A stretch of DNA of 64,000 nt from a phage. The position numbers and the translations under genes were made by a program. Each line of letters starts with the position of its first letter. The first letter of the stretch is position 1. Below the pieces are notes generated by a model. That model was not told the DNA's origin, made no database searches, and was given only the letters and a program-made list of their open reading frames with translations. Positions 27,171-39,075 of the stretch are shown piece by piece. The stretch lies in the sequence record PX418213.1, one strand, 5' to 3'.

Positions 27171-27178
27171 ATGAATTT

Positions 27179-27346
27179 TTAATAAAGTTTAGTCACTTCA
27201 TAAACTATACTACGAGATTCTTTATTACGTTGTATTAAATTAGCATATGCTTCTTCAGCTTCATTTTTAGTATTAAAGTCTATAACGTGGGAGGTATTAG
27301 CTCTGTTTGATTGGCTATACCAGATAACTACTAGGAGTTTAAACAT
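27179..27346 (-). CDS. small hypothetical protein
   Basis: ORF 27179..27373 trimmed to internal Met with AAGGA RBS so it no longer overlaps the tRNA. Confidence 0.4.
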   Translation of the reverse strand: MFKLLVVIWYSQSNRANTSHVIDFNTKNEAEEAYANLIQRNKESRSIVYEVTKLY

Positions 27347-27360
27347 ACTAATCCTTAAAT

Positions 27361-27447
27361 TGGTGCTGGGCACAGGATTCGAACCTGCAATGGGATTACT
27401 CCTCCTGATTACAAATCAGGTGCATTCAACCATTCTGCCAACCCAGC
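27361..27447 (-). tRNA. tRNA with long extra arm, anticodon TGT (Thr-type) in arm CCTGA-TTTGTAA-TCAGG
   Basis: 87 nt; acceptor GCTGGGT/GCCCAGC; T-arm GCAGG-TTCGAAT-CCTGT; class-II-like length unusual for Thr. Confidence 0.5.
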
Positions 27448-27612
27448 AGAACCCGTTATTTCAACGGGATTTCTTTTTCAATAACAAGAGACTTGTCAGT
27501 CATAACTATCATTGCCATTTGTTGTAGAAATTCAAAGGTGAAGGCTACACGTTCTTCACCAATCTCTACTTCTACACGTTTCTTTTGTTTATCGATCTTG
27601 ACTTTTATGTTA

Positions 27613-27864
27613 TCAGCCATTAGAGAGTACAGTACTGGTAGTTGGCAATACTACAGATGAAGCAACAGTGTTTAAATGCTTTCTCCAGTCTAGGTTAAAT
27701 TGTTTTCGAAACTCTTCATAAGGTTCTTCTGGATAAAAGCTAAAACCCCCTTTCTCATCATTCAGGATAACAGATCCGTCAGTTTGTTCGTATGCTCGGT
27801 ATGTTTCTCCAATAACAATAACTCGTTTATCGGTACTTTTATTACGAAACTCAAAAACGTGCAT
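27613..27864 (-). CDS. hypothetical protein
   Basis: 83-aa ORF. Confidence 0.5.
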   Translation of the reverse strand: MHVFEFRNKSTDKRVIVIGETYRAYEQTDGSVILNDEKGGFSFYPEEPYEEFRKQFNLDWRKHLNTVASSVVLPTTSTVLSNG

Positions 27865-27880
27865 AATGTTTCCTTAAAGT

Positions 27881-27956
27881 TGGAGCGGCTAGAGGGAATC
27901 GAACCCTACTCAGCGAGGCTTGGAAGGCCTGCGACACAACCCATGTGCTTAACCGC
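27881..27956 (-). tRNA. tRNA-Gly (TCC), tentative
   Basis: acceptor GCGGTTA/TAGCCGC; loop CTTCCAA; one mismatch in anticodon stem. Confidence 0.5.
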
Positions 27957-27964
27957 TTATTATT

Positions 27965-28040
27965 TGGCTGGAGAAGGAGGAATCGAACCTACCATTAACG
28001 GAGTCAAAGGCCGTTGTGCTAACCGTTACACTACTCTCCA
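27965..28040 (-). tRNA. tRNA-Gln (TTG)
   Basis: U1-A72 acceptor (TGGAGAG/CTTCTCCA) as in bacterial tRNA-Gln; loop CTTTGAC. Confidence 0.55.
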
Positions 28041-28046
28041 ATTATT

Positions 28047-28122
28047 TGGCTGGAGTGCCTGGGATCGAACCAGGAACCTTCGGAGTCAGAGGCCGACGAT
28101 CTGCCAATTGATCTACACTCCA
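28047..28122 (-). tRNA. tRNA, anticodon CTG (Gln-type), tentative
   Basis: acceptor TGGAGTG/CACTCCA; T-arm CTGGG-TTCGATC-CCAGG; loop CTCTGAC. Confidence 0.5.
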
Positions 28123-28131
28123 AAAATGCTA

Positions 28132-28368
28132 TTAACTAGATGCTGTTTCTACTGGCTGAGACACAGCAGGCTGTTCTAACGTATCTGGTGCTGATACAGA
28201 GAAAAGAGCTTGTAATGCTGCAATATCACGCTCGTAAGTATCAATACGAGTAGTAAGAGTATCTACCATCTGTTTATGGTAGGCTAAGTTATTCTGAGAT
28301 TCATCTCGAAGAGTTTGCAGTTCTGCAAGACGTGTTAACATAATTTCACTAATTAAAGCATTACTCAT
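28132..28368 (-). CDS. coiled-coil protein
   Basis: 78-aa ORF. Confidence 0.5.
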   Translation of the reverse strand: MSNALISEIMLTRLAELQTLRDESQNNLAYHKQMVDTLTTRIDTYERDIAALQALFSVSAPDTLEQPAVSQPVETASS

Positions 28369-28558
28369 TTGTTTCTCCTAAGTTTTCCGGTTCTTCTAAA
28401 CGTTTGCCTTCATGATCTACTCGAATAACTCCGCACCCTTCGCAAATCACAACTGCACCATAACCTTCTTTGACCTCAGCTTCTGTAATCAAACCAGAAA
28501 GATCACCAGTATCTCTGCCCCACATATCAATGGAGCATTGTTTGCAGAAATCAGCCAT
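28361..28558 (-). CDS. hypothetical protein
   Basis: 65-aa ORF. Confidence 0.45.
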   Translation of the reverse strand: MADFCKQCSIDMWGRDTGDLSGLITEAEVKEGYGAVVICEGCGVIRVDHEGKRLEEPENLGETNE

Positions 28559-28583
28559 ATTTTATTTCCTATTTAAGTTAATT

Positions 28584-28660
28584 TGGGGTGGCTAGTGGAA
28601 TTCGAATCCACATAGGCCTGATTCACAATCAGGATCATTAACCAATTATGATATAGCCAC
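28584..28660 (-). tRNA. tRNA-His (GTG)
   Basis: extra 5' G typical of tRNA-His; anticodon arm CTGAT-TGTGAAT-ATCAG. Confidence 0.7.
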
Positions 28661-29029
28661 AATTGAAAACTCGCAGGGTTAGCGAAACCATCCTCAATTA
28701 GCATGTTCTAGAATACTAATCAAGTTATCTCCTATTGCACGCAGCTCAAGACGAGTACGAATTTTCAATTGTGGCGGCTCTCCGAAACTCTTCTACTCTA
28801 GCCTTAGCAGCTTACTCCCGAACGCATGTCGGGAAAGTCTTACTAAGAGTATCAAATAGCACCGTTACACTTTGAGCCATAGGTGTATCAAGAAGCAGAA
28901 GGACTTGAACCTTCACGAGATAGACCATTTATCTCAGCCGCTTTATGAGGTATGTTGCGGGGAGTGGATGTTCCCCATAAACCTTTTAGGCAGCCCCGTC
29001 TACCGATTCCGGCATACTTCAAGATTTTT
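28661..29029 (-). ncRNA. non-coding stretch with isolated T-arm-like hairpin
   Basis: GAAGG-TTCAAGT-CCTTC hairpin near 28898-28914 with no matching acceptor stem; GGGGA..TCCCC hairpin at 28958-28975. Confidence 0.3.
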
Positions 29030-29203
29030 TTATAAACCAGCAGAAGCCTCATTTAGAGCATCAACAATAGCTTCACGTTGGGTCATTCCATACCCGGTGG
29101 AATCTAGGTGTGGCAAATAAGCCATCCATCCCTTATCTGTTTCATGAAGACATGCTTTAAATTTTGTACCATCCTTCATTGTTACAGTAACTGTTTTGCT
29201 CAT
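29030..29203 (-). CDS. small hypothetical protein (57 aa)
   Basis: hand-translated MSKTVTVTMKDGTKFKACLHE...; AAGGAAA RBS. Confidence 0.4.
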   Translation of the reverse strand: MSKTVTVTMKDGTKFKACLHETDKGWMAYLPHLDSTGYGMTQREAIVDALNEASAGL

Positions 29204-29223
29204 AAGATTTCCTTATAGTTAAT

Positions 29224-29313
29224 TGGCAGAAGATAATGGAGTCGAACCATCACCGTATCGCTACAGCGGGCTGGTTTTCAAGACCAGTTACGTACCACTA
29301 CGTCCTATCTTCT
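29224..29313 (-). tRNA. tRNA-Ser (TGA)
   Basis: 90 nt with long variable arm; anticodon arm CTGGT-CTTGAAA-ACCAG. Confidence 0.7.
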
Positions 29314-29326
29314 AGTATTTATTATA

Positions 29327-29674
29327 CTAATAGTCACTCGTACTAGTGAAGTTTTCTACTTTTCCACAAATTTTACAAGTCCTACGATGGTAGTAGGTAA
29401 TTTTTACTTTAGACCAGCCATCGTGATCATTACCTAGGTTTTCTGTTACTCCCCAAGTATGAGAACACTCATTTTCAATTTGCTTAGTAAGAGCGTTATA
29501 GCGAGTATAAAACTCCTCCTGAGCAATAGCAAACTCTTTCTGTAGTTTATCACGAGCAATAATAGCACGTTCCAGATATGTTAAATCTGGCATTCCAGCT
29601 TTTTCAGCAGCATCTATAATCTTATCTTCATCTAAAGATGCTAAAAACTCTAGAGCTTTATCTTTTGCTAACAT
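29327..29674 (-). CDS. hypothetical protein with C-terminal Cys pairs
   Basis: 115-aa ORF; ...CSHTWG...RRTCKICGK. Confidence 0.5.
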   Translation of the reverse strand: MLAKDKALEFLASLDEDKIIDAAEKAGMPDLTYLERAIIARDKLQKEFAIAQEEFYTRYNALTKQIENECSHTWGVTENLGNDHDGWSKVKITYYHRRTCKICGKVENFTSTSDY

Positions 29675-29693
29675 TATTATTACCTCAAGTGTT

Positions 29694-29784
29694 TGGCGGA
29701 AGAGGAGAGATTTGAACTCTCAAGCCGTTTTACCAGTCAGCCACTTTCCAAGCGGTTTTCGTCGCCAATTCGATTTGCTCTTCC
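29694..29784 (-). tRNA. tRNA-Ser (GGA), tentative
   Basis: 91 nt; acceptor GGAAGAG/CTCTTCC; T-arm GAGAG-TTCAAAT-CTCTC; long variable arm. Confidence 0.55.
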
Positions 29785-29804
29785 AATAATAAGATGATGC
29801 CTCT

Positions 29805-29893
29805 ATCACACCAGGCTGTTATGCCTCGCTGGGATTCGAACCCATTAAAACAGCTCAACCGAGATAGTAGGTTTAATTTACTCTGACCATCAA
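29805..29893 (-). ncRNA. degenerate tRNA-like element
   Basis: T-loop GGGTTCGAATCCC at 29831-29843 but no complementary acceptor strand or encoded CCA. Confidence 0.3.
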
Positions 29894-29896
29894 ATT

Positions 29897-29973
29897 TGGT
29901 GCGTGACAAGGGATTCGAACCCTCAAAACCCGACTTCTAAGGACGGTATGTATGCCAATTCCATCAATCACGC
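29897..29973 (-). tRNA. atypical tRNA, anticodon TAG (Leu codon) but class-I length
   Basis: 77 nt; acceptor GCGTGAT/GTCACGC; D-loop GAATTGG (Leu-like); loop CTTAGAA; no long variable arm. Confidence 0.45.
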
Positions 29974-29978
29974 GTATT

Positions 29979-30057
29979 TGGTGGAGAATAACGGAATCGA
30001 ACCGTTCTGATGTCCTCGGTGCAAGCGAGGTGTCCACTCCATGCAGACCCATTCCCC
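29979..30057 (-). tRNA. tRNA-Ala (TGC)
   Basis: G3:U70 pair in acceptor (GGGGAAT/ATTCTCC); anticodon arm CCTCG-CTTGCAC-CGAGG. Confidence 0.7.
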
Positions 30058-30295
30058 AAATTCTTTAGTTTACTAAGGCTATTAGCTCGGCGCAACTACA
30101 GCACCTTCGCTTCGAGCGGAAGGAACTGCGTCATCTCGCAAACCCAATACACTATTCAGTTGCCGCTGAATCTAGTGGACTAATCTAGAACTTCTCCCGA
30201 ATCGTAGGGATCGTGCTTTTTGGCAGCCAGTCCTAGGTCGAGCTAATACCTTAGTGAACTATGATGAGGATTTCTCCTCATCAATTTATATAAAT
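30058..30295 (-). ncRNA. structured leader / candidate ncRNA at 5' end of tRNA transcript
   Basis: no ORF; long-range complement AGGCTATTAGCTCG (30076-30089) with CGAGCTAATACCT (30239-30251); local hairpins. Confidence 0.35.
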
Positions 30296-30324
30296 ATTAT
30301 AACAAGAAATTAAGCATCAAGCAA
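30296..30324 (-). promoter_or_regulatory. T5-type promoter driving tRNA cluster segment
   Basis: TTGCTT, 17 bp, TATAAT; overlaps 3' end of CDS 30317-30685. Confidence 0.55.
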
Positions 30325-30685
30325 GTACATTTTTAGCGATTTCTTGCAGTTCCTTTACATCACGAACGTAAAGGTAATCAGAGCTTCCAGAGTGCATACT
30401 TTGCATAACTACACCTTCATCTGGTGCATTATCCTTCAGAGTAATTCCTAACCAGAACTCGGCAAAACTAGGTGTTATCTCACCTTGACTTGCCTTGAAT
30501 ACATCATATTCTGTAAGTTCTTGACCAGTAGATAATCCCAAATAGACAGAACTAAGATCTATCTCTTTATGAGACTCATAAAACTCCGTTAGATCTTTCT
30601 CCATATCCCAACCATGCTGTAACGCGAACTCCATTGCCACATGACTGAAATAACCTTGAATCTTGCTTGATAATTGCATTTGCAA
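30317..30685 (-). CDS. hypothetical protein
   Basis: 122-aa ORF starting with TTG. Confidence 0.5.
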   Translation of the reverse strand: MQMQLSSKIQGYFSHVAMEFALQHGWDMEKDLTEFYESHKEIDLSSVYLGLSTGQELTEYDVFKASQGEITPSFAEFWLGITLKDNAPDEGVVMQSMHSGSSDYLYVRDVKELQEIAKNVLA

Positions 30686-30704
30686 TTCCTTATTTTGAGT
30701 TAAT

Positions 30705-30778
30705 TGGTACTCGGTGATAGAATCGAACTATCGCAATCGCCGTGTAAAGACGGGGTTCTCCCATTAAACTAACCGAGC
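30705..30778 (-). tRNA. tRNA-Val (TAC), tentative
   Basis: acceptor GCTCGGT/ACCGAGT; T-arm GATAG-TTCGATT-CTATC; loop TTTACAC. Confidence 0.5.
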
Positions 30779-30782
30779 AATT

Positions 30783-30861
30783 TGGTAGATCGCCTGGGAC
30801 TCGAACCCAGAACCTTCCGATTAAAAGTCGGATGCTACTAAACCTATTGAGCTAGCGATCT
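30783..30861 (-). tRNA. tRNA-Lys (TTT)
   Basis: anticodon arm TCCGA-CTTTTAA-TCGGA; acceptor AGATCGC/GCGATCT. Confidence 0.7.
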
Positions 30862-30862
30862 A

Positions 30863-31030
30863 TTAGTAACCATTGTATACTTCTTTAATAGAGTGAATTT
30901 TCAAGTAAGGGTGATTAGTATTAAACTCTGCCATTACTTCATCCCAATTTTTACCGTAATGAGCGAGTAAGGATTTTGATGTATTCTTACCTAAACGTTT
31001 GTCACTTACTACTAATCGAAATACTTTCAT
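30863..31030 (-). CDS. small hypothetical protein (55 aa)
   Basis: hand-translated MKVFRLVVSDKRLGKN...; AGAGGA RBS. Confidence 0.4.
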   Translation of the reverse strand: MKVFRLVVSDKRLGKNTSKSLLAHYGKNWDEVMAEFNTNHPYLKIHSIKEVYNGY

Positions 31031-31050
31031 TTCGAAATCCTCTATTAAAA

Positions 31051-31128
31051 TGGAAGCGGGTGCAGGAATCGAACCTACCTCTTTCTAGCTTATGAGACTA
31101 GTGATCTCTACCAGAGATCTAACCCGCA
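31051..31128 (-). tRNA. tRNA, anticodon CAT (Met/fMet/Ile2)
   Basis: anticodon arm CTAGT-CTCATAA-GCTAG; T-arm GTAGG-TTCGATT-CCTGC; irregular acceptor end. Confidence 0.55.
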
Positions 31129-31134
31129 ATTGTT

Positions 31135-31212
31135 TGGTCTCCGTGGGAGGATTTGAACCCCCGACCCTATCGCCCCAAACGAAACGCTCTGGCCAAACTG
31201 AGCTACACGGAG
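31135..31212 (-). tRNA. tRNA-Pro (TGG)
   Basis: acceptor CTCCGTG/CACGGAG; D-arm GCTCAGTTTGGCCAGAGC; loop TTTGGGG. Confidence 0.6.
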
Positions 31213-31216
31213 AATA

Positions 31217-31375
31217 TTATTTCTTCAACCACAACAAAGATAAGCCCAACATACTAAAGCCGCTAACTAATCCGATACATTTTTCTTCTATAGTAAAAGT
31301 ATCTAGATTAAATGCTGTTATAGCTATTGGCATACACCATAATGCCATAAAAACTTGAGCTATCTTGTGTTTCAT
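31217..31375 (-). CDS. small membrane protein (52 aa)
   Basis: hand-translated MKHKIAQVFMALWCMPIAITAF...; GAAGGAAAG RBS; promoter directly upstream. Confidence 0.4.
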   Translation of the reverse strand: MKHKIAQVFMALWCMPIAITAFNLDTFTIEEKCIGLVSGFSMLGLSLLWLKK

Positions 31376-31407
31376 TTTGCTTTCCTTCTCTTCACTTTAT
31401 AAGATAT

Positions 31408-31436
31408 ATTATACAGAGAATTAAGCAGAATAGCAA
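31408..31436 (-). promoter_or_regulatory. T5-type strong sigma70 promoter
   Basis: TTGCTA, 17 bp, TATAAT. Confidence 0.6.
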
Positions 31437-31439
31437 ATG

Positions 31440-31828
31440 AATTTTTAATAAATTTACTTATTGTGTAGGCCACCTGGAGGCTACCAACCCCACGGCTGAC
31501 AAAGAAGTTTGCGAGACCTCTCTTAAATGCCAGAATAGACCCGCCGATCTATCGGAACCTACATAATAAGTAAACTTTATAGTGTCATTCTAGACAGGAC
31601 TCGAACCTGTTATCACTTGTGCGGACTTACGAGAACCATTCTTTCACTCGAATCGAACGAGCTTCTGCCCTAGCCAAGCTGGTTTCCCCATCAACCACGC
31701 TAGAATGTTTGATTGTTTTCAGTGCAAGAGTCCGAGTCTTGGACACGACCGCTTCGCAAGTACATAGGCAGCTTATCATGAGTCAGCACTTCCGAATTGC
31801 TAGCTCCGTGTTCTGCACTGAAATTTTG
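31440..31828 (-). ncRNA. structured non-coding region with tRNA-like elements
   Basis: no ORF; D-arm-like TGGTT-GATGGGGA-AACCA; two T-arm-like hairpins (CTCG-TTCGATT-CGAG and ACAGG-TTCGAGT-CCTGT); ATTCTAG/CTAGAAT complement about 120 nt apart; separate stem TTCAGTGCA/TGCACTGAA (31719-31727 with 31812-31820). Confidence 0.35.
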
Positions 31829-32176
31829 TTAATTTAATAGTAAAGTACGATCTACTTCACCATTAATTGTTCGGCACTCTTCTGGGATTGCTGGTGTAGC
31901 CTTATATTCCCACCATTCAGAACCGTCGTATTCACCACGTTCTAACCAAGTTCCGTCAGTAAACCATACATTACCATAAAGCAATTGCCCACCGAAACCC
32001 GAGTCATATTTAAAGTCTAGATTATTTAGAAAATCTTCAATATCTTTTTCTGTATAACCTACGGGCAATACCCAAACTTCTTTGTCTCCATAATAACCGA
32101 ATTCTATCTTAATACACTTAACTTCAGAATTAGTATTCTTTAGGGCAAGTAACAACTCTTCTTTAGCATTAATCAT
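31829..32176 (-). CDS. hypothetical protein
   Basis: 115-aa ORF. Confidence 0.5.
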   Translation of the reverse strand: MINAKEELLLALKNTNSEVKCIKIEFGYYGDKEVWVLPVGYTEKDIEDFLNNLDFKYDSGFGGQLLYGNVWFTDGTWLERGEYDGSEWWEYKATPAIPEECRTINGEVDRTLLLN

Positions 32177-32202
32177 AGCATATTTCTCGTGCTAGTTTAA
32201 TT

Positions 32203-32278
32203 TGGTACACCCACTAGGACTTGAACCTAGAACCCTCCGCTTAAGAGGCGGTAGCTCTAACCATTGAGCTATGGATGT
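32203..32278 (-). tRNA. tRNA, anticodon CTT (Lys-type), tentative
   Basis: acceptor ACATCCA/TGGGTGT; D-arm GCTCAATGGTTAGAGC; loop CTCTTAA. Confidence 0.5.
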
Positions 32279-32279
32279 A

Positions 32280-32438
32280 TTAAATTACTTTTTCCAGTTC
32301 ATCAGCTATGGCTTTGATTTTTTCAAAGTTTACATCACTTATAATGATACCTTCCAGTGACAGAGATATTCTAGCATTTTTCATAGCAGATTCTTTTATC
32401 TGCTCTATCTCTTCTGGAGTAAACTCCCTACGTTCCAT
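32280..32438 (-). CDS. small hypothetical protein (52 aa)
   Basis: hand-translated MERREFTPEEIEQIKESAMKNARISL...; AAGGTAGG RBS. Confidence 0.4.
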   Translation of the reverse strand: MERREFTPEEIEQIKESAMKNARISLSLEGIIISDVNFEKIKAIADELEKVI

Positions 32439-32455
32439 AGCTAACCTACCTTATT

Positions 32456-32532
32456 TGGCGCGACCGATGGGATTCGAACCCACATTCCCTCCCGTGACAG
32501 GGGAGTACCATTACCAAGCCAGCCCCGGTCGC
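32456..32532 (-). tRNA. tRNA-Asp (GTC)
   Basis: acceptor GCGACCG/CGGTCGC; anticodon arm CTCCC-CTGTCAC-GGGAG. Confidence 0.75.
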
Positions 32533-32541
32533 ATAATTCAT

Positions 32542-32727
32542 TTACTCAGCTTTGAGTTTTTCAATAGCTGCATTAAGTTCCTTAAGAAACTCTTTTCGTA
32601 CATTAAGACGATTAAGACTTACTAGTATATCATGTTTAAGTTCTTCGATGTATTTCTTCTCAACTTCAATATTGTTGAGAGTGCTATCACGATGAACCTC
32701 TAGCTGCGCAATTACATTCTTGGACAT
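32542..32727 (-). CDS. small coiled-coil protein
   Basis: 61-aa ORF. Confidence 0.4.
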   Translation of the reverse strand: MSKNVIAQLEVHRDSTLNNIEVEKKYIEELKHDILVSLNRLNVRKEFLKELNAAIEKLKAE

Positions 32728-32829
32728 GCTTGTTTCCTCAGTTATTAATGAAAATGGTATCTGTGGCTGAATTCGATGTCAGCAATGATAGCTGGTTGGC
32801 TACCGGTTTACTTAACTCTACACAGAATT

Positions 32830-32912
32830 TGGCGGGCCGTGTAGGATTCGAACCTACGTTGTCTTTCGACATGGATTAACAGTCCACCGCCAAACCGCTT
32901 GGCTAACGACCC
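32830..32912 (-). tRNA. tRNA, anticodon GTT (Asn-type) with 13-nt extra arm
   Basis: 83 nt; acceptor GGGTCGT/ACGGCCC; anticodon arm GTGGA-CTGTTAA-TCCAT; variable GTCGAAAGACAAC. Confidence 0.55.
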
Positions 32913-33064
32913 TAAATTTATATTGCTGACTAGGATTTTCACCTAGACGGAGTTAGCACCGTAGCGTGTAGCGGCATACCTCTCCAAACCGTGCCTCATC
33001 TTTCAATTACGGAGACAGTGTTCCTACGCGTGCCTGAATTGATTTAACAATTCTTTCAGCAAAT

Positions 33065-33140
33065 TGGACGACCGCATGAGATTTGAACTCACATAAAAAG
33101 GATTTGCAATCCTTCGCCTAAGCCATTCAGCCAACGGTCG
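33065..33140 (-). tRNA. tRNA-Cys (GCA)
   Basis: anticodon arm AAGGA-TTGCAAA-TCCTT; acceptor CGACCGT/GCGGTCG. Confidence 0.7.
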
Positions 33141-33188
33141 ATTTATCTTGTTCTGTCATGTTGCTTCTCCAGTTCAATTTATGTAATT

Positions 33189-33217
33189 ATTATACAGAAC
33201 TTTTGGAAACTAAGCAA
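33189..33217 (-). promoter_or_regulatory. T5-type promoter upstream of tRNA-Cys
   Basis: TTGCTT, 17 bp, TATAAT. Confidence 0.6.
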
Positions 33218-33497
33218 CTACATTTTTTAAGAATTTGATGCCTTTCTTTTTCTTCTTATATTTCCACGTTAATGGATTCTGTCGATTATGAACGCTTGAG
33301 ATCTTCGTCTCGTCAAAGTTCTTCAATATCATGTAATCACAAGATAATTGTTCTAGTGGAATGTGATCACCGTCAAAAGCGTATACATAGGGCTGTTGAC
33401 TAGCACGATAATGATAGACTTTGTTAATTCTACGTTTCAGCGACTTATCCGCGCAGTAAATAAAGAAGTTTTCAGGATGCATCAGCAGCTCCTTCAA
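33210..33497 (-). CDS. hypothetical protein
   Basis: 95-aa ORF. Confidence 0.5.
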   Translation of the reverse strand: MKELLMHPENFFIYCADKSLKRRINKVYHYRASQQPYVYAFDGDHIPLEQLSCDYMILKNFDETKISSVHNRQNPLTWKYKKKKKGIKFLKNVVA

Positions 33498-33499
33498 TT

Positions 33500-33574
33500 T
33501 GGTGCACCCTGTTCGTATCGAACGAACCTCTCAAGCTCTTCAGGCAAGCGCTAATCCATCTCAGCTAAAGGTGC
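33500..33574 (-). tRNA. tRNA, anticodon ambiguous (GAA-Phe or CTG)
   Basis: acceptor GCACCTT/AGGGTGC; T-arm GTTCG-TTCGATA-CGAAC; anticodon stem irregular. Confidence 0.45.
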
Positions 33575-33580
33575 AAATTT

Positions 33581-33660
33581 TGGCAAACCTACTAGGACTC
33601 GAACCTAGACCGTACGGTTTTGGAGACCGACATGCTGTCCAGTAACACTCTAGGAATGCA
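33581..33660 (-). ncRNA. tRNA-like element with mismatched acceptor
   Basis: T-arm CTAGG-TTCGAGT-CCTAG, variable hairpin ACCGTACGGT, 3' TAGGTTT-G-CCA; 5' strand pairs at only 5 of 7 positions. Confidence 0.35.
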
Positions 33661-33665
33661 GGAAT

Positions 33666-33742
33666 TGGCGTCCTGTGCGGGGGTCGAACCCGCAAATCCT
33701 ACCTTGAAAGGGTAGTGACTTTACCAGTTTGTCTAACAGGAC
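33666..33742 (-). tRNA. tRNA-Glu (TTC)
   Basis: acceptor GTCCTGT/ACAGGAC; anticodon arm CTACC-CTTTCAA-GGTAG. Confidence 0.75.
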
Positions 33743-33748
33743 TTAAAT

Positions 33749-33835
33749 TGGTGGGGAAAGATGGAGTCGAACCACCCGAGTCGCAATGACAACTGATTTA
33801 CAGTCAGCTCTGCTACCACTTACAGAATATTTCCC
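33749..33835 (-). tRNA. tRNA-Tyr (GTA)
   Basis: long-arm tRNA; acceptor GGGGAAA/TTTCCCC; anticodon arm GCTGA-CTGTAAA-TCAGT. Confidence 0.7.
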
Positions 33836-33967
33836 CATATTTAGAAGTATTCAAAAAATTCTAATTTAAACACTTTTAAATATGTTTCCAAATTAGGTAA
33901 CTATTATACCAAGTTTTAAGGCACTGAGCAAGTCAAATTTTAAAGAACTTGCTCAGTGCTGTATTGG

Positions 33968-34243
33968 TTAGTCGAACTTAGGAGTGACAGTTAAGGAGAA
34001 TGGAAGTTCGAAAACTTCTTCACCCTCATTACTAACAGTAATTACACGACCTTTAAGTTCAGACATTGAAATATCAATATCAGCTTTTGCATCCGGAGCC
34101 ATGCCAGCTTCAACACATTTAGCTTTAATTTCCGGCAGAAGTTCTACATCATAGAAATAAAGCCATTCAATCTCACCTTCCCAGCCTTCCCAGGATTTAC
34201 AGATTGCACTTTCAATACCAGCTGCTATAACACGATTTTGCAT
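33968..34243 (-). CDS. hypothetical protein
   Basis: 91-aa ORF. Confidence 0.5.
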   Translation of the reverse strand: MQNRVIAAGIESAICKSWEGWEGEIEWLYFYDVELLPEIKAKCVEAGMAPDAKADIDISMSELKGRVITVSNEGEEVFELPFSLTVTPKFD

Positions 34244-34273
34244 TCATTAACTCCTTCATCAATTTATATAACT

Positions 34274-34303
34274 ATTATATCAGAAATTTAAAGCAAAAGG
34301 CAA
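34274..34303 (-). promoter_or_regulatory. T5-type sigma70 promoter
   Basis: TTGCCT, 18 bp, TATAAT. Confidence 0.5.
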
Positions 34304-34333
34304 GTACATTTTTAAAAATTCTGTTTGGAGGAG

Positions 34334-34540
34334 CTAAACTCCAGATTCTTCAGCCAAGTCTAGGCTAATAAGAGATATAGCCATAATTGCCGCTCCATGT
34401 TCTTTTTCTCCAGTCTCTTTAGCTAGAGTTATAATGTCAAGAAATTGCTTATGAAAATCTGCAACCTCTTGAGTTATACCTGCCTCAGCAATCATGCCTT
34501 TAAGCATAAAACGTTGTGCAGTAATTTCAGGATTAGCCAT
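34334..34540 (-). CDS. hypothetical protein
   Basis: 68-aa ORF. Confidence 0.45.
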   Translation of the reverse strand: MANPEITAQRFMLKGMIAEAGITQEVADFHKQFLDIITLAKETGEKEHGAAIMAISLISLDLAEESGV

Positions 34541-34700
34541 GTTGTTTCTCCAGTTTCATCTTTAATAGTCTACAAATAAAATCAATGTCTTCATCCGTGC
34601 CTAGATCTCTGTCTTCAAGAGTTGCCTTGAAGTTTTTAGTCAATTCCATGAGGATAACTTCCCTAGAACGACGTGTTGGCGGAGGTGGATGTCTATACAT
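34533..34700 (-). CDS. small hypothetical protein (55 aa)
   Basis: hand-translated MYRHPPPPTRRSREV...; AAGGAAA RBS; stop overlaps next start. Confidence 0.4.
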   Translation of the reverse strand: MYRHPPPPTRRSREVILMELTKNFKATLEDRDLGTDEDIDFICRLLKMKLEKQHG

Positions 34701-34715
34701 CTTATTTCCTTAATT

Positions 34716-34792
34716 TGGTAGGGGTGGTGGGATTCGAACCCACAAAACCTGAATTTTAAGTCCAGTACCTATGCCAATTCGATTACACCCCC
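34716..34792 (-). tRNA. atypical tRNA, anticodon TAA (Leu codon) but class-I length
   Basis: 77 nt; acceptor GGGGGTG/CACCCCT; D-loop GAATTGG; anticodon arm CTGGA-CTTAAAA-TTCAG; no long variable arm. Confidence 0.5.
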
Positions 34793-34893
34793 ATGTAATC
34801 AGTTTATTAGTTGATACATATTATAGCCTAGTGAAAATCCTACTACTAGTCCCACAAACCAACCAATATAATAATCTTTTAGTTTCACAGGTA

Positions 34894-35079
34894 TTATCCT
34901 CTTTCAATATCTAGAGAAATACCACAGTTAGGATTAATACCTGTACCCTTGCAATTTGGGCAAATCCATATATTGCAAAAAGTATCTCCTGCTTCTGCAT
35001 CAGAACTTTCACCAATTCCCCTACACTCAGGGCAGGCGCATTCTTCTAGCTCTTGCTTGAGTTCTTGAAACTTGGACAT
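34894..35079 (-). CDS. small zinc-ribbon-like protein
   Basis: 61 aa; CPECRG...CPNCKG. Confidence 0.5.
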   Translation of the reverse strand: MSKFQELKQELEECACPECRGIGESSDAEAGDTFCNIWICPNCKGTGINPNCGISLDIERG

Positions 35080-35088
35080 ATAGTCTCC

Positions 35089-35277
35089 TTAGTTAATTAC
35101 TTTTGAGGCTTCTAAAGCATTAACGTAGTAAACATCTTCTACATTATACATATAGTCTACTACTTTGTCCATAGCATGGAGTTCGGATGTAGCCTTTACT
35201 AGTCTGTACCCTTGTTTAAACTCGTCCGAACGTTCTCTATCTTGTGCAAATTTAACAGAAACTATGAATAATTCCAT
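35089..35277 (-). CDS. hypothetical protein
   Basis: 62-aa ORF. Confidence 0.45.
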   Translation of the reverse strand: MELFIVSVKFAQDRERSDEFKQGYRLVKATSELHAMDKVVDYMYNVEDVYYVNALEASKVIN

Positions 35278-35296
35278 TAATTGTCCTTATTTAATT

Positions 35297-35374
35297 TGGT
35301 GGCTCCCCGAGGATTCGAACCTACGTACCTTCCGGTTATGAGCCGGGTGCTCATACCATATGAGCTTGAGAACC
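35297..35374 (-). tRNA. tRNA, anticodon CAT (Met/Ile2)
   Basis: acceptor GGTTCTC/GGGAGCC with G-U pairs; loop CTCATAA; T-stem has mismatches. Confidence 0.5.
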
Positions 35375-35380
35375 AAAATC

Positions 35381-35469
35381 TGGCGGAAGAAGTGGGAATC
35401 GAACCCACAAGGCTATATTTCAAACCGACAGATTAGCAATCTGCTGCAATACCGTTATGCTATTCTTCC
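35381..35469 (-). tRNA. tRNA-Ser (GCT)
   Basis: 89 nt long-arm tRNA; acceptor GGAAGAA/TTCTTCC; anticodon arm GCAGA-TTGCTAA-TCTGT. Confidence 0.65.
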
Positions 35470-35484
35470 GAATTTATAAGATAT

Positions 35485-35513
35485 ATTATATTAGAAATTT
35501 AGCTTCATAGCAA
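35485..35513 (-). promoter_or_regulatory. T5-type promoter upstream of tRNA-Ser(GCT)
   Basis: TTGCTA, 17 bp, TATAAT. Confidence 0.6.
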
Positions 35514-36060
35514 GAAAATTTTTCAAGTTTTCGGTAGACATCTCATCCATATCTACGGGAGAAACAAAGCCGTTTAATTTTCTAGCAAATTTTTCACCTG
35601 CAGGGTCATTATCCCCAACAGCTACCAATTTAAAAGGTAGTAATTTCAGTTGCTTTAATAATGCTTTTCCTGGAGAAGAACCCAACATTGCCAGGGCTGG
35701 ATAACCAGCGTTATGTAGCGCCACTGCCTTAAATACAGACTCAGCAATCAATACTACTTTTTCATCTCCATTGAGAGTTTCTAGTCCCCATACACACTGG
35801 GTAGTAGAATAAGTAAAATATTTAGCTTCAAAGGGGCACTTACCATGACCTTTTGGAGCAGAAGGATTATAAGTTTGATAGCCCCTCAACATCCCAGAGA
35901 AGTCATACAACGGGACTGTTAGCCATCCTTCCGGACTTAACCAGCAATGATATTTATCTGTATCAAATCCTCTAGATAAGAGGTGCTGTGTTAGCTCATC
36001 AACATTCATATTTGGTTCCTCTCTCAAATTTATAGATATATTATACTGAGAATTTAGCAT
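35491..36060 (-). CDS. Toprim-domain protein (primase-like fragment)
   Basis: VLIAESVFKAVAL...VAVGDNDPAGEKF resembles DnaG-type Toprim E...DxD motifs; only 189 aa. Confidence 0.55.
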   Translation of the reverse strand: MLNSQYNISINLREEPNMNVDELTQHLLSRGFDTDKYHCWLSPEGWLTVPLYDFSGMLRGYQTYNPSAPKGHGKCPFEAKYFTYSTTQCVWGLETLNGDEKVVLIAESVFKAVALHNAGYPALAMLGSSPGKALLKQLKLLPFKLVAVGDNDPAGEKFARKLNGFVSPVDMDEMSTENLKNFLAMKLNF

Positions 36061-36068
36061 TCAAGCAA
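36040..36068 (-). promoter_or_regulatory. T5-type strong sigma70 promoter
   Basis: TTGCTT, 17 bp, TATAAT. Confidence 0.6.
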
Positions 36069-36184
36069 TCAAATTTTTTAACTTTTTAGAGGAAAATCAT
36101 AGGGCACTTAAGGGTAGCAGATAAGTGGTGAGGACCAAAATTTGTGACCCCACTAAAAATTCAGGGGCAATTTTTAAAGACCCC

Positions 36185-36213
36185 TTGACATTTTCGCTGG
36201 GGTAGTGTAAAGT
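36185..36213 (+). promoter_or_regulatory. sigma70-type promoter for plus-strand three-gene module
   Basis: TTGACA (36185-36190), 17-bp spacer, TAAAGT; AGGAGG RBS before 36266. Confidence 0.4.
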
Positions 36214-36265
36214 ATATGTTATGGATGAGTGATCAAAGAGACACACATTTTCTATATACTAGGAG

Positions 36266-37261
36266 GTGTCAAAAATGACAGAAGAAGTAGCTAAGAGTCC
36301 TGAGACCGTCGCTAGCGTTGCAGCAGAACTGCACCGTCACGAGGAATCAGATAAGAAAAAGTGGGAGAAGGTCAGAGCCTACGAAGAAAAACATCGTGAA
36401 CACGATGATGAAGAAGATGACGATGATGAACATTGTCATAAATATGGAAAACATAAAATGCAAGAACCAGTAAACGTATTTACTAGTGGCTTCCCTGGCC
36501 TACTGGGTGGTTACCCAGCAAACGCAGGTGCTTTCGGTGGTGAAGGTATGGGACTATTCGGAGCTATCCTAATCGGTGCTCTATTAACAGGCGGATTCGG
36601 TGGATTCGGTGGATTCGGTGGACGTGGTATAGTTGGTGAAGGTACCGCAGTTGATGCAGTACTTCAGAACCAAGATACCGCTAGTATTCTAGCAGCTATT
36701 AACACTACTCGTACAGAAGCTAATCAGGGTACTGGGGCTGTTTTAAGCGCAGTTAACAATGGTTTTAGCCAGACATCCCAAAACCAGAGCCGTGATACTC
36801 AGTCTGTACTAACTACGATCTATGGTACAGGTGCTAATCTGTCTAATCAGATCTGCCAGGAAACTCGCAATGTTATTCAGGGTCAGTTCGATCTTTCTCG
36901 CCAGATTGATCAATCTTTCGCAGCTAATCAGATAGCTCGTGCACAAGATAAGTTTGATTCTGCACAGATCGCTTTCCAGCAGACTTTACAAACTAATAAC
37001 CAGTTTGCCGCTGTTCAGGCTCAGATGTGTGCTAACCAGAACTCTCTGGAACGTCAGATCGCTGAATGTTGCTGTGAACTTCAGACTGCGATCGCTGGTG
37101 TAACTACTGCGCGTATCCAGGATGAGTTAGACGCATGTCGCCTACGTGAAGCAATCGCTGCGGGTAGCGGTGCTAACGGTCAGGTAATTAATCAAATCGC
37201 TTTAAGTCTTGGTGCTATCACTCAGACTCTGGCTGGTCTGCAGGCTAAACTGCCGGCTTAA
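36266..37261 (+). CDS. glycine-zipper membrane protein with Q/N-rich coiled-coil-like tail
   Basis: 331 aa; His/acid-rich N-terminus (HREHDDEEDDDDEHCH); GLFGAILIGALLTGGFGGFGGFGG; long Q/N/S/T-rich region with ECCCE. Confidence 0.6.
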   Translation: MSKMTEEVAKSPETVASVAAELHRHEESDKKKWEKVRAYEEKHREHDDEEDDDDEHCHKYGKHKMQEPVNVFTSGFPGLLGGYPANAGAFGGEGMGLFGAILIGALLTGGFGGFGGFGGRGIVGEGTAVDAVLQNQDTASILAAINTTRTEANQGTGAVLSAVNNGFSQTSQNQSRDTQSVLTTIYGTGANLSNQICQETRNVIQGQFDLSRQIDQSFAANQIARAQDKFDSAQIAFQQTLQTNNQFAAVQAQMCANQNSLERQIAECCCELQTAIAGVTTARIQDELDACRLREAIAAGSGANGQVINQIALSLGAITQTLAGLQAKLPA

Positions 37262-37282
37262 TATTAAGGGGAGGAGCCCATT

Positions 37283-37699
37283 ATGAGTAAATATGGTTTT
37301 GTAAATAACGGACTTAATCAAAGTATGGGCTCCCAGCAGCCCGTTCCGGGTCTGGATAACCCCTACTTACAACAGTTGCAACAGCGTTTAGCAGAAGCGC
37401 AACAGATGCAGCAACAACTCCAGCAAAACCCTGGAAGTGTAAGTCCTATGCAAATGATGCAGCAAATGAGCGGGCAGTCGCAAATGTCTCAACAAATGCA
37501 GCAACAGATGCCGCAGCAGCAAGTTCAACAACAAACCCAACAACCGCAGGTTTCTGCGGAAGGACAGGCAGTACTAGCCCTTTTCGAAGACTTCGCAAAG
37601 ACAGAGGATGGGAAACAGCTTGTATCACTTATGGGTAAGTTTAATAGCTTCTGCCAAAGCCAAGTTGCAAAAGCTCAAAATGGTGGTAATAACTCCTAA
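37283..37699 (+). CDS. Gln/Met-rich low-complexity protein
   Basis: 138 aa; central QQLQQRLAEAQQMQQQLQQ...QQMQQQMPQQQVQQQTQQPQ; GGAGG RBS. Confidence 0.55.
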   Translation: MSKYGFVNNGLNQSMGSQQPVPGLDNPYLQQLQQRLAEAQQMQQQLQQNPGSVSPMQMMQQMSGQSQMSQQMQQQMPQQQVQQQTQQPQVSAEGQAVLALFEDFAKTEDGKQLVSLMGKFNSFCQSQVAKAQNGGNNS

Positions 37700-37708
37700 G
37701 GAGAAATT

Positions 37709-37903
37709 ATGTGTTGCAGAAAATCTGTTTCGTGCTGCCCAATGCCTGTAGCACGTTGTTGCTCTCCAGCAATGTTTACGCAAATACCGGCGTTCAATCC
37801 GTTTGCCTTTAAGCCTACTCTTATCCTGCCCCCTAGAGTGGATTTTCAGTCAAGATTGGCCTCCCGTATGGGTGGTTGCTGTACACCGAGAGTGTGGTTC
37901 TAA
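37709..37903 (+). CDS. small Cys-doublet-rich peptide
   Basis: 64 aa with four CC doublets (MCCRKSVSCCPMPVARCC...GGCC); AGGAGA RBS; followed by terminator. Confidence 0.45.
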   Translation: MCCRKSVSCCPMPVARCCSPAMFTQIPAFNPFAFKPTLILPPRVDFQSRLASRMGGCCTPRVWF

Positions 37904-37913
37904 ACCAAAAACA

Positions 37914-37950
37914 AAAGCCCCTGCCGAAAGGTAAGGGGCTTTTTCTTTTG
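37914..37950 (+). terminator. rho-independent terminator
   Basis: AGCCCCT...AGGGGCT hairpin followed by TTTTTCTTTT. Confidence 0.65.
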
Positions 37951-37959
37951 CCTTAAATA

Positions 37960-37994
37960 CAGAAAAGCCCGCGCTCTCGGAGGAAACGCGGGCT
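37960..37994 (-). terminator. rho-independent terminator for SPFH gene
   Basis: GCCCGCG...CGCGGGC hairpin with U-run on minus strand. Confidence 0.6.
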
Positions 37995-38018
37995 TGGTTC
38001 GAAGATTACGTGTAACTA

Positions 38019-38966
38019 TTACTTGTTACGCATATCCATGATCATTTGACCATCGTAGCCAGTACCTACCACAGTCTGAGGTACACCACCTTGATATTTC
38101 TGAGCACGAATCATCTCAACTTCCAGTTGTTTCCAACGAATCATCTCAGGAGTAATAGTACGTTGCAATGCGGCGTTAGCTTCAGCTTCTTTCTTAGCTG
38201 CGTACAGTTTAGCATCTGCGTCACGTTCATTAGCAATAGCTTGGTTGTTGCGAGCTTCACGATCTGCTTCTGCTTGTTTAACCTTCTGCTGTGCTTCTTG
38301 TTCAACACGAGCCAGTTCAGCTTTTGCAGCATTAACTTGCTCTTCACGAACTTTGGTATTCTGTACCTGCTCCATGATTACCGGTGGCAAAGTAATATCC
38401 TGAAGGAACACCTGCTTAACTGTGTAACCATATGGGCGTGCATACTCTTCAACTTCCTGTTGAATTGCAGTTTGCAATTGAGCCTGAATTTTAGCATCAA
38501 ACAAATCTTGTGCTTTAGGTACAGACTTACCAAACTCACGAATAGTAGACAGTAATTTTTCAGTTACATATTTGTCTAACGCTTGATCCTGAGTACCTGC
38601 ATTAATACGGTTAATCGGTGCCTTAGAACCATCAAACTGCAACATAACAGTCAGGTCAACAGTGGATTTAAACTTATCCTGACTAGGAACCTGAAGTTTA
38701 TCTAATTTTAGAGCAATATCTTTTGTACTAAAAGTATCGAAAGAAGCAAAAGGATTTACAATATGAAAGCCGGGTAATACTGGATTAGGGTCTACTTTAC
38801 CCAGGAAAGTCTGGGTTTTAACAGTACCGTCTTGAACAACAGTATAGGAGTTAAGGGCCAGAACTAAACCTACCAAACCAACTGCAGCACCAATACCCCA
38901 ACGTTTGATATTACGCATCAATTTTTGCTCATAAGTCAGTTCTTTAGTGTTTTTAGTAGCAAACAT
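38019..38966 (-). CDS. SPFH/band-7 (prohibitin/HflKC-like) membrane protein
   Basis: 315 aa; N-terminal TM (WGIGAAVGLVGLVLAL); band-7-like core; C-terminal coiled coil. Confidence 0.65.
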   Translation of the reverse strand: MFATKNTKELTYEQKLMRNIKRWGIGAAVGLVGLVLALNSYTVVQDGTVKTQTFLGKVDPNPVLPGFHIVNPFASFDTFSTKDIALKLDKLQVPSQDKFKSTVDLTVMLQFDGSKAPINRINAGTQDQALDKYVTEKLLSTIREFGKSVPKAQDLFDAKIQAQLQTAIQQEVEEYARPYGYTVKQVFLQDITLPPVIMEQVQNTKVREEQVNAAKAELARVEQEAQQKVKQAEADREARNNQAIANERDADAKLYAAKKEAEANAALQRTITPEMIRWKQLEVEMIRAQKYQGGVPQTVVGTGYDGQMIMDMRNK

Positions 38967-39000
38967 ATATTTCCTTTGTTTTAGTTACAGTTAATAAAAT

Positions 39001-39075
39001 TGGCCGAGGTGACAGGATTCGAACCTGCATAAAGGAATTTAGAAGACTCCTGCCTCTCCCTTAGACTACACCCCG
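39001..39075 (-). tRNA. tRNA-Arg (TCT)
   Basis: acceptor CGGGGTG/CACCTCG; anticodon arm GGAGT-CTTCTAA-ATTCC. Confidence 0.7.

What the first reader, a model, noticed from the sequence alone, without database searches (positions are those of the whole stretch)
35491..36060. Stand-alone Toprim-domain mini-protein inside the tRNA cluster
The 189-aa protein carries a Toprim-like E...DxD signature without the other parts of a DnaG-type primase. It may be a nicking enzyme, a primase remnant or a nuclease.
Basis: partly seen in the sequence, partly recalled or inferred. Interest (0 to 1): 0.45.

Follow-up and report, generated by a model that had tools for sequence, protein, structure and literature searches.

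The report
Known anti-retron gene rad of T5-like phages
This small gene is the already described "Rad" protein of T5-like phages, a cut-down relative of the DNA primase core that lets the phage escape bacterial retron defences; it is real and functional but not a new discovery.

Summary
The ORF is real and the Toprim call holds (Pfam Toprim_2 above its curated cut-off). It is not new. The window is a T5-like phage. The protein is 97% identical to T5.076 and 98% identical to ORF75 of phage SP15. ORF75 was named Rad (retron anti-defence) in a 2023 preprint and shown in Nat Commun 2024 to let the phage evade retrons Eco2 and Eco7.

- The true start is most likely ATG 36009 (172 aa, not 189). The 17 extra codons lie inside the early promoter and are broken or replaced in related phages.
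- It is neither a remnant nor the T5 nickase. E90, D135 and D153 are nearly invariant across 175 relatives, and BF23 lacks the gene but still carries nicks.

The phage group has a separate complete primase (T5.121).

Most likely mechanism: metal-dependent cleavage of retron non-coding RNA. This is inferred and has not been shown biochemically.

Side observation: relatives are repeatedly fused or adjacent to CCA-adding enzymes.

The parts
35491..36009 (-). rad coding sequence (172 aa plus stop): DnaG-core-like N-terminal subdomain (about residues 1-80) followed by a Toprim domain (about 83-165)
36010..36060 (-). The 17 extra codons of the 189-aa reading. Most likely the non-coding 5' leader and promoter -10 region, not protein.
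   Evidence: The sequence shows TATAAT at 36045..36040 and an RBS at 36025..36017. T5 annotates promoter P15a over the equivalent stretch and starts T5.076 at the downstream ATG. The frame is broken or the sequence replaced in L015, L026, L022, L023, L028 and L034.
36040..36068 (-). Early sigma-70 promoter (equivalent of T5 P15a): TTGCTT, 17 nt, TATAAT, preceded by an A-rich stretch
   Evidence: Read from the sequence. Position matches the T5 annotation of P15a. The consensus scan missed it because TTGCTT matches only 3 of 6 positions of TTGACA.
36017..36025 (-). Ribosome-binding site GAGAGAGGA, 7 nt before ATG 36009
   Evidence: Read from the sequence. Conserved in T5-like loci; a GGAG or GGGG motif is present even where the upstream region differs.
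35740..35742 (-). Codon of E90, the Toprim catalytic glutamate (aligns with E265 of E. coli DnaG)
   Evidence: 175 of 175 family members have E here. hhalign to DnaG has probability 93.7%.
35605..35613 (-). Codons of D133-N134-D135, the Toprim DxD motif (aligns with D309/D311 of DnaG)
   Evidence: D135 is kept in 167 of 175 members and D133 in 153 of 175. Alignment. D135H lowers anti-retron activity in the preprint.
35551..35553 (-). Codon of D153, the third acidic cluster of the Toprim site (VDMDE)
   Evidence: 170 of 175 members have D here.
35485..35513 (-). Promoter-like site overlapping the 3' end of rad (equivalent of T5 P15b). It drives the downstream tRNA-Ser(GCU) at 35381..35469.
   Evidence: Scan match of 10 of 12 positions. 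T5 annotation of P15b. tRNA.

Best explanation
This is the rad gene of a T5-like phage, the orthologue of T5.076 and of phage SP15 ORF75 ('Rad', retron anti-defence). It is transcribed from its own early promoter inside the tRNA-rich accessory region. It encodes a 172-aa protein that evolved from the RNA-polymerase core of a DnaG-type primase, keeping the N-terminal subdomain and the Toprim domain but losing the zinc ribbon and the helicase-binding domain. It is dispensable for replication, which is served by a separate complete primase, and it acts as a counter-defence factor that disarms several retrons. The most likely mechanism uses the intact Toprim metal site (E90, D133, D135, D153) to cut the structured retron non-coding RNA (msr-msd), or its RNA-DNA product, so that msDNA is not made and the retron cannot sense the phage or fire. 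Shown: the identity, the fold, the conservation of the site, and (from the literature) the anti-retron phenotype and the lower ncRNA and msDNA levels. Inferred: that Rad itself is the nuclease, and that RNA is its substrate.
Against: No in vitro nuclease activity has been reported. The peer-reviewed paper says the authors could not determine how ORF75 inhibits the retron. The preprint's figure legend says single mutants, including D135H, only 'slightly reduced' activity, which is weak for a catalytic aspartate. Loss of msDNA triggers rather than silences some retrons according to later structural papers (abstracts), so lowering msDNA is not self-evidently protective. T5 carrying ORF75 does not evade the FORC 82 retron. 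The closest folds are polymerases, not nucleases.
Confidence: 0.62

Rival explanations
1. Non-catalytic inhibitor or decoy. Rad uses the nucleic-acid-binding groove of the DnaG core to bind the retron ncRNA, the msDNA or the RT-ncRNA complex. This blocks reverse transcription or assembly, and the fall in ncRNA is secondary because unprotected RNA is turned over by host RNases.
For: Single active-site mutant D135H is described as only slightly reducing activity. The mechanism is declared undetermined in the 2024 paper. The PADLOC library's only match is an RT-associated DnaG-like defence protein (E=5.5e-7), which hints at possible mimicry of a defence component.
Against: E90, D135 and D153 are conserved at 95-100% across 175 relatives of only 27-41% identity, which is hard to explain without catalysis. 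The DnaG template-tracking arginines R199 and R201 and R221 are not kept. The protein is near neutral (pI 6.4).
Confidence: 0.15
2. RNA-end processing or tRNA-repair enzyme. The family's primary job is to cut or trim structured RNA ends (tRNA-like substrates) in cooperation with CCA-adding/HD enzymes. Retron ncRNA, whose 5' and 3' ends pair into a stem, is one susceptible substrate among others.
For: Three fusions with a PolyA_pol head domain, in both domain orders; two of them, P0068 and P0160, also carry an HD domain, and P0078 does not. Adjacent or overlapping genes in Vibrio phage F99, Shewanella phage 1/4, L044 and L051. tRNA genes within 2 kb in 10 of 55 non-T5 viral loci, plus all T5-like loci.
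Against: CCA-enzyme neighbours occur in only 2 of 55 sampled loci, and most loci have no tRNA nearby. All 24 tRNA genes of this window already encode CCA. Phages deleted for the region grow normally on hosts without retrons. Rad alone from a plasmid is reported to lower retron RNA without other phage factors.
Confidence: 0.12
3. Auxiliary primase. A zinc-ribbon-less DnaG core makes RNA primers (or template-independent oligoribonucleotides) for replication or recombination, perhaps with a helicase or a zinc-finger partner supplied in trans.
For: The best structural matches are primase cores. All Toprim acidic residues are present. In Jersey-like siphophages the homologue overlaps the stop of a helicase gene inside the replication module. 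Public annotations call it 'DNA primase'.
Against: No zinc ribbon and no helicase-binding domain. NCBIfam dnaG scores 14 bits against a cut-off of 284. DnaG residues R199, R201 and R221 are replaced, and motif III (K-x-x-N-x-P) is degenerate in the T5 clade. A complete primase exists in T5, and a separate helicase-primase exists in the Jersey-like phage, where the neighbouring helicase is SNF2-type, not DnaB-type. The gene is dispensable. The nearby 61-aa CxxC protein is absent from T5.
Confidence: 0.07
4. Site-specific DNA nickase that makes the single-strand interruptions of T5 virion DNA, or else a decaying primase fragment with no function.
Against: BF23 has a deletion that removes this gene yet carries the specific nicks (PMC10644984). 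The family has 1392 clusters at 50% identity with near-invariant motifs, and the model is confidently folded, so it is not a remnant.
Confidence: 0.02

Closest known systems
Rad / ORF75 of Escherichia phage SP15 and T5.076 (ORF071 in AY587007) of phage T5
   Same: 98% and 97% amino-acid identity, the same genomic position and promoter, and the same residues that were mutated experimentally.
   Different: Nothing of substance: 3 substitutions against SP15 ORF75, two of them in the probably untranslated 17-codon extension. I place the start at the T5.076 start (172 aa) rather than at the 189-aa start used for SP15.
RNA-polymerase domain of DnaG-type primases (E. coli DnaG, Aquifex DnaG, T7 gp4 primase fragment, Twinkle)
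   Different: There is no CHC2 zinc ribbon, no first ~80 residues of the bacterial core, and no helicase-binding C-terminal domain. DnaG R199, R201 and R221 are not conserved. The family has its own invariants: H9, R13, Q45, Y47, [RK]63-Y64 and H99. It is not required for replication.
T5.121 (pri), the replicative primase of T5-like phages
   Same: Same phage group and the same superfamily (Toprim_2 match in both).
   Different: T5.121 has a zinc ribbon and a DnaG_N domain and lies next to the DnaB-like D6 helicase. It is only 23% identical over 132 residues, E=0.058, so Rad is not a recent duplicate.
RNase M5 and small stand-alone Toprim proteins (PDB 6tg6, 2i5r)
   Different: Only the 87-89 residues of the Toprim half align. 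RNase M5 has its Toprim domain at the N-terminus and a different C-terminal domain. There is no sequence-profile match.
MG010-type DnaG-like proteins (NCBIfam TIGR00646)
   Same: These are short primase-like proteins. The profile matches weakly over residues 22-148 (E=2.9e-4).
   Different: The score of 20 bits is far below the family cut-off of 261, so Rad is not a member. That MG010 is a truncated DnaG paralogue lacking the zinc finger is my recollection, not something tested here.

Membership tests
Rad (retron anti-defence; SP15 ORF75 / T5.076) | Sequence orthology to the experimentally studied protein | tested here: met
   186 of 189 identical to SP15 ORF75; 166 of 172 identical to T5.076.
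Rad (retron anti-defence; SP15 ORF75 / T5.076) | Conserved position in the tRNA-rich accessory region, directly upstream of tRNA-Ser(GCU) and divergent from the T5.077 homologue | tested here: met
Rad (retron anti-defence; SP15 ORF75 / T5.076) | Presence of the residues whose mutation lowers activity (R13, P33, I88, D135, E156) | tested here: met
   All five are present at those positions of the 172-aa form. R13 and D135 are kept in at least 95% of the family.
Rad (retron anti-defence; SP15 ORF75 / T5.076) | Inhibition of retron defence and lowering of ncRNA and msDNA | not testable with these tools
   Taken from the literature only.
Toprim domain (Pfam Toprim_2, PF13155) | Profile score above the curated cut-off, and the E ... 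DxD acidic motifs on the Toprim fold | tested here: met
   24.7 bits against a cut-off of 22.1. E90 and D133-x-D135 align with DnaG E265 and D309/D311. The fold matches Toprim structures.
DnaG-type DNA primase | CHC2 zinc ribbon for template recognition | tested here: not met
   No Zn_ribbon_DnaG match, whereas T5.121 has one. The protein begins inside the polymerase core.
DnaG-type DNA primase | RNA-polymerase core (N-terminal subdomain plus Toprim) | tested here: met
DnaG-type DNA primase | Basic residues for template tracking and NTP binding (E. coli R199, R201, R221, K229) | tested here: not met
   hhalign puts S25, E27 and Y47 at R199, R201 and R221. The K-x-x-N-x-P motif is degenerate in the T5 clade (G54-H-G-K-C-P). 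The mapping rests on a sequence-profile alignment, not on a superposed structure.
DnaG-type DNA primase | Helicase-interaction domain or fused helicase, and a place in the replication module | tested here: not met
   The protein ends about 20 residues after the Toprim domain. The gene lies in the tRNA region, while pri (T5.121) lies next to the D6 helicase. NCBIfam dnaG scores 14.3 bits against 283.6.
RNase M5 | N-terminal Toprim domain followed by the RNase M5 C-terminal domain | tested here: not met
OLD / AriB / GajA-type Toprim nucleases | Toprim nuclease fused to or partnered with an ABC-type ATPase | tested here: not met
   The only PADLOC match is an RT-associated DnaG-like model, with no OLD, PARIS or Gabija model. 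There is no ATPase gene beside it.

The most novel reading that the evidence does not exclude
The Rad family may not be a dedicated retron-RNA nuclease. It may be a widespread phage class of primase-core-derived enzymes that act on structured RNA ends, working with tRNA repair (CCA-adding/HD enzymes, to which it is repeatedly fused). Alternatively, it may act by a primase-like reaction on msDNA rather than by hydrolysis. Retron inhibition would then be one outcome of a broader RNA-directed counter-defence activity. Neither the preprint nor the papers I read mention the CCA-enzyme fusions.
Probability: 0.2. Interest if true: 0.6.

Novelty: already known. Interest (0 to 1): 0.28.

Why it matters
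The gene matters because it was reported as the first phage-encoded inhibitor acting on a range of retrons, and its biochemical mechanism was still unresolved in the latest paper I could find that addresses it (2024). As a genome-scan finding it adds no new entity. This analysis adds four things: a corrected start codon; the recognition that the protein is a nearly whole DnaG polymerase core with an intact metal site but altered substrate-binding residues; evidence from BF23 that it is not the T5 nickase; and the recurrent link of the family to CCA-adding enzymes, which points experimenters towards RNA substrates.

Tried and rejected
- **Recent duplicate of the phage's own primase:** rejected. 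Rad is 23% identical to T5.121 over 132 residues, E=0.058.
- **Trans zinc-finger partner:** the 61-aa CxxC protein at 34894..35079 gives only weak, sub-threshold zinc-ribbon and DnaJ-type matches, and T5 has no equivalent gene. Dropped.
- **Mapping of T7 gp4 catalytic lysines:** hhalign against T7 gp4 gave probability 1%, so no residue mapping to T7 was attempted. The E. coli DnaG mapping was used instead.
- **Profile search of PDB sequences:** it reached only the Toprim part of DnaG, at E about 1e-3. The fold search was needed to see the N-terminal subdomain.
- **Sole primase of Jersey-like phages:** rejected. Phage Henuyfy11N also has a 752-aa helicase-primase, and the adjacent helicase is SNF2-type.
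- **General rule that the family sits in tRNA clusters or next to CCA enzymes:** true only for a minority, 10 of 55 and 2 of 55 non-T5 loci.
- **Need for CCA addition in this phage:** rejected. All 24 tRNA genes encode CCA.
- **Literature searches for a later mechanistic paper on Rad/ORF75:** none found beyond the 2023 preprint, the 2024 Nat Commun paper and a 2025 negative result on the FORC 82 retron.
- **Promoter scan:** it missed the rad promoter because its -35 hexamer is TTGCTT. The assignment rests on the sequence and on the T5 annotation.

Full report
**What the window is.** The 3 kb around the finding is 96-99% identical to more than a hundred T5-like phages of Salmonella and Escherichia (Demerecviridae, Tequintavirus and relatives). 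The best match is Salmonella phage PS3-1 at 98.6%. The window holds 24 tRNA genes, all on the minus strand: 23 between 26362 and 35469, and tRNA-Arg at 39001. This is the tRNA-rich early region of the T5 genome map.

**The observation.** An ORF of 189 codons lies at 35491..36060 on the minus strand.
- Pfam Toprim_2 matches at E=3e-5 with 24.7 bits, above the curated cut-off of 22.1. Toprim and Toprim_4 match below their cut-offs.
- PHROG 849, annotated 'DNA primase', matches at E=5.9e-62 over profile positions 141-337 of 435, the middle of a longer primase profile.

**Start codon.** On the gene strand the sequence reads TTGCTT (36068..36063), 17 nt, TATAAT (36045..36040), then GAGAGAGGA (36025..36017), 7 nt, ATG (36009).
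- The ATG at 36060 lies between the two promoter hexamers.
- In T5 the equivalent gene, T5.076, is annotated from the downstream ATG (172 aa), and promoter P15a is annotated over the stretch that the 189-aa reading would translate.
- Among 22 distinct upstream sequences of T5-like loci, two carry 2-nt indels that break the extension (L015, L026). Four have a completely different upstream sequence, a hairpin followed by a -10 box (L022, L023, L028, L034). All keep the MxVDEL start and a Shine-Dalgarno motif.
- Most homologues in the two protein searches are 165-200 aa.

The protein is therefore most likely 172 aa (35491..36009). The residue numbers used for mutants in the Rad preprint (R13, P33, I88, D135, E156) fit this form exactly, although that text gives the length as 189 aa.

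**Identity.** The protein is 97% identical to T5.076 and 98% identical to E0157_075, which is ORF75 of Escherichia phage SP15.
[quoted passage not shown] It also states that BF23 has lost the gene through a ~4 kb deletion (PMC10644984).
- The preprint of Azam et al. (10.1101/2023.03.15.532788) identifies ORF75 of SP15 as the determinant that rescues deletion phages from retrons Ec67, Ec78 and Ec83.
- The same preprint reports that homologues from other phages, including Proteus phage Privateer, also protect, and that Ec48 and Se72 are inhibited.
- It further reports that msDNA and msr-msd RNA fall while RT and effector transcripts do not, and that mutating conserved residues lowers activity.
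- The peer-reviewed version (Nat Commun 2024, PMC11555353) keeps the genetic result for retrons Eco2 and Eco7. [quoted passage not shown]
- A 2025 study found that T5 carrying ORF75 does not evade the FORC 82 retron (PMC12475279).

I found no later mechanistic paper. The entity and its biological role are therefore already known, and the chemistry is not.

**Anatomy.** An AlphaFold2 model built on 42 homologues has mean pLDDT 93.6 and pTM 0.89.

The protein is thus a nearly complete DnaG-type RNA-polymerase core of the compact size seen in T7, not a lone Toprim domain.
- hhalign against E. coli DnaG (probability 93.7%) aligns Rad 27-143 with DnaG 201-318.
- It places E90 on E265 and D133/D135 on D309/D311. 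The VDMDE segment (D153, D155) follows, where DnaG has its third acidic cluster; that last equivalence rests on my knowledge of DnaG, not on a superposition.
- The zinc ribbon and the helicase-binding domain are missing. T5.121, the annotated replication primase next to the DnaB-like D6 helicase, has zinc ribbon, DnaG_N and Toprim. It is only 23% identical to Rad.

**Conservation.** A profile search of 1.84 billion representatives found 1392 clusters at E<=1e-3 and 257 at E<=1e-30. Most are stand-alone proteins of 165-200 aa. In an alignment of 175 such proteins, 27-41% identical to Rad apart from the closest relatives, the following hold:
- At least 95% conserved: L10, R13, G43, Y47, Y64, G75, E90, G91 (S in the T5 clade), F93, D135 and D153.
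- Conserved in 87-93%: H9, Q45, H99 and D133.
- Position 63 is always R or K.

The metal-binding site is therefore under strong selection, which argues for catalysis. By the hhalign mapping, however, DnaG residues R199, R201 and R221 correspond to S25, E27 and the invariant Y47. The DnaG motif K-x-x-N-x-P is recognisable in the family consensus (K-R-x-N-D-P) but degenerate in the T5 clade. That these DnaG residues serve template tracking and NTP binding is established knowledge of DnaG that I recall, not something tested here. The pattern suggests a primase fold whose chemistry is kept but whose substrate has changed.

**Genomic contexts elsewhere.**
- tblastn finds the protein in 481 phage records: T5-like phages; ~41-45 kb siphophages of Salmonella and Escherichia; Erwinia and Klebsiella/Serratia jumbo phages; and Proteus, Vibrio, Shewanella and Agrobacterium phages.
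- In the Jersey-like phage Henuyfy11N the homologue overlaps the stop codon of an SNF2-type helicase gene. That phage also has a separate 752-aa helicase-primase.
- In Vibrio phage F99 and Shewanella phage 1/4 the homologue directly follows, or overlaps, a CCA-adding enzyme with an HD domain.
- Among 55 non-T5 viral contigs, 10 have tRNA genes within 2 kb (up to 15 tRNAs in the locus) and 2 have an adjacent CCA enzyme.
- Other frequent neighbours look like metallophosphoesterases, a nicotinamide phosphoribosyltransferase-like protein and an ATP-dependent ligase-like protein. I judged this from their sequences only and did not scan them.
- Among 20 longer representatives, the Rad module is fused to PolyA_pol-type nucleotidyltransferases (three cases, both orders), Mom-family domains (two), Arr-type ADP-ribosyltransferase domains (two, one also with a GNAT domain), a HAD hydrolase, a cytidylyltransferase-like domain, a DUF3268 zinc-finger domain and a ParB_N domain.

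This is the company of accessory, conflict-related genes rather than of replisomes. The CCA-enzyme link points to RNA.

**Mechanism.**
- What is shown: orthology to Rad; an intact and conserved Toprim metal site on a DnaG-core fold; absence of the primase's template-recognition and helicase-coupling parts; dispensability; and, from the literature, the anti-retron phenotype with reduced ncRNA and msDNA.
- What I infer: the protein is a metal-dependent phosphodiesterase acting on the structured retron ncRNA or its RNA-DNA product. Because it recognises structure rather than sequence, it affects several retrons.
- RNase M5 is the precedent that a Toprim site can cleave structured RNA.
- My confidence is about 0.97 for identity and role, about 0.45-0.5 for the nuclease mechanism, and 0.62 for the combined statement.

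The main rival is a non-catalytic binder, favoured by the mild effect reported for D135H and disfavoured by the invariance of the acidic residues. A broader RNA-end or tRNA-repair function and a residual primase-like activity remain possible. The DNA-nickase idea is contradicted by BF23, which lacks the gene but has the nicks. One unresolved difficulty applies to any model that lowers msDNA: in several retrons, loss or damage of msDNA is the activating signal (abstracts). The order of events therefore needs experimental work.

**Verdict.** Novelty is 'already known'. Interest as a scan finding is low to moderate. The open mechanism and the CCA-enzyme fusions are the only parts that could lead somewhere new.

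Noticed in passing
P0068, P0160, P0078 (proteins); L007:2724-4558; L008:2703-4591; L044:4392-6525; L051:6001-8310: Rad-family modules are fused, in both domain orders, or directly adjacent to CCA-adding tRNA nucleotidyltransferases, most of which also carry an HD domain. None of the Rad papers I read mentions this link.
   Followed up: partly
window 33968-34243 (-) and 34334-34540 (-); tRNA-Tyr 33749-33835 (-): The 91-aa and 68-aa ORFs are 95% and 75% identical to SP15 ORF71 and ORF72. The preprint implicates these in evasion of retron Ec83, though its text and figure legend disagree on the ORF numbers. The adjacent tRNA-Tyr is the counterpart of the tRNA-Tyr that, in SP15, rescues the phage from retron Eco7. 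The whole 33.7-36.1 kb stretch is the published anti-defence / tRNA-rich island.
   Followed up: partly
window 34894-35079 (-) and 35089-35277 (-): A 61-aa CxxC...CxxC protein, annotated elsewhere as 'antitermination protein Q' or 'DnaJ-like', gives only sub-threshold zinc-ribbon matches. It and a 62-aa ORF lie between tRNA-Leu and tRNA-Ser. T5 has the homing endonuclease hegA at this place instead, so the island varies between close relatives.
   Followed up: partly
L090:2311-3041 (Erwinia phage pEa_SNUABM_17) and 56 other Erwinia phage records: In Erwinia jumbo phages the Rad homologue is found by tblastn as two pieces and is annotated as two separate ORFs of 97 and 122 aa. This suggests a frameshifted or naturally split gene. 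Whether it is functional, or read through by recoding, was not examined.
   Followed up: partly
window 36266-37261 (+) and 37283-37699 (+): Divergently transcribed from rad are a 331-aa Gly- and Gln-rich protein with a CCCELQ motif (T5.077 homologue) and a 138-aa protein with long Gln-rich runs (T5.078 homologue). Neither has a meaningful Pfam match, and their function is unknown.
   Followed up: no
window 26362-39075: All 24 tRNA genes encode their 3' CCA, and in 23 of 24 the CCA is followed by an A/T-rich run such as AAT, ATT or TTT. The phage tRNAs therefore do not depend on CCA addition for first maturation.
   Followed up: yes
window 35491-36009 (protein), residues 84-145: The only PADLOC match is a model named 'RTasDnaG-like' of the DRT (defence-associated reverse transcriptase) class, at E=5.5e-7. 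A DnaG-like module thus also occurs on the defence side in association with reverse transcriptases. Whether this reflects mimicry or only shared Toprim ancestry was not examined.
   Followed up: no
L022, L023, L028, L034 (positions about 5880-6000): In a subset of T5-like phages the rad promoter region is replaced by a GC-rich hairpin (AAGCCCGCG...CGCGGGCTTTTCT) followed by TATAAT. This suggests a different upstream neighbour and read-through or terminator-proximal expression.
   Followed up: no
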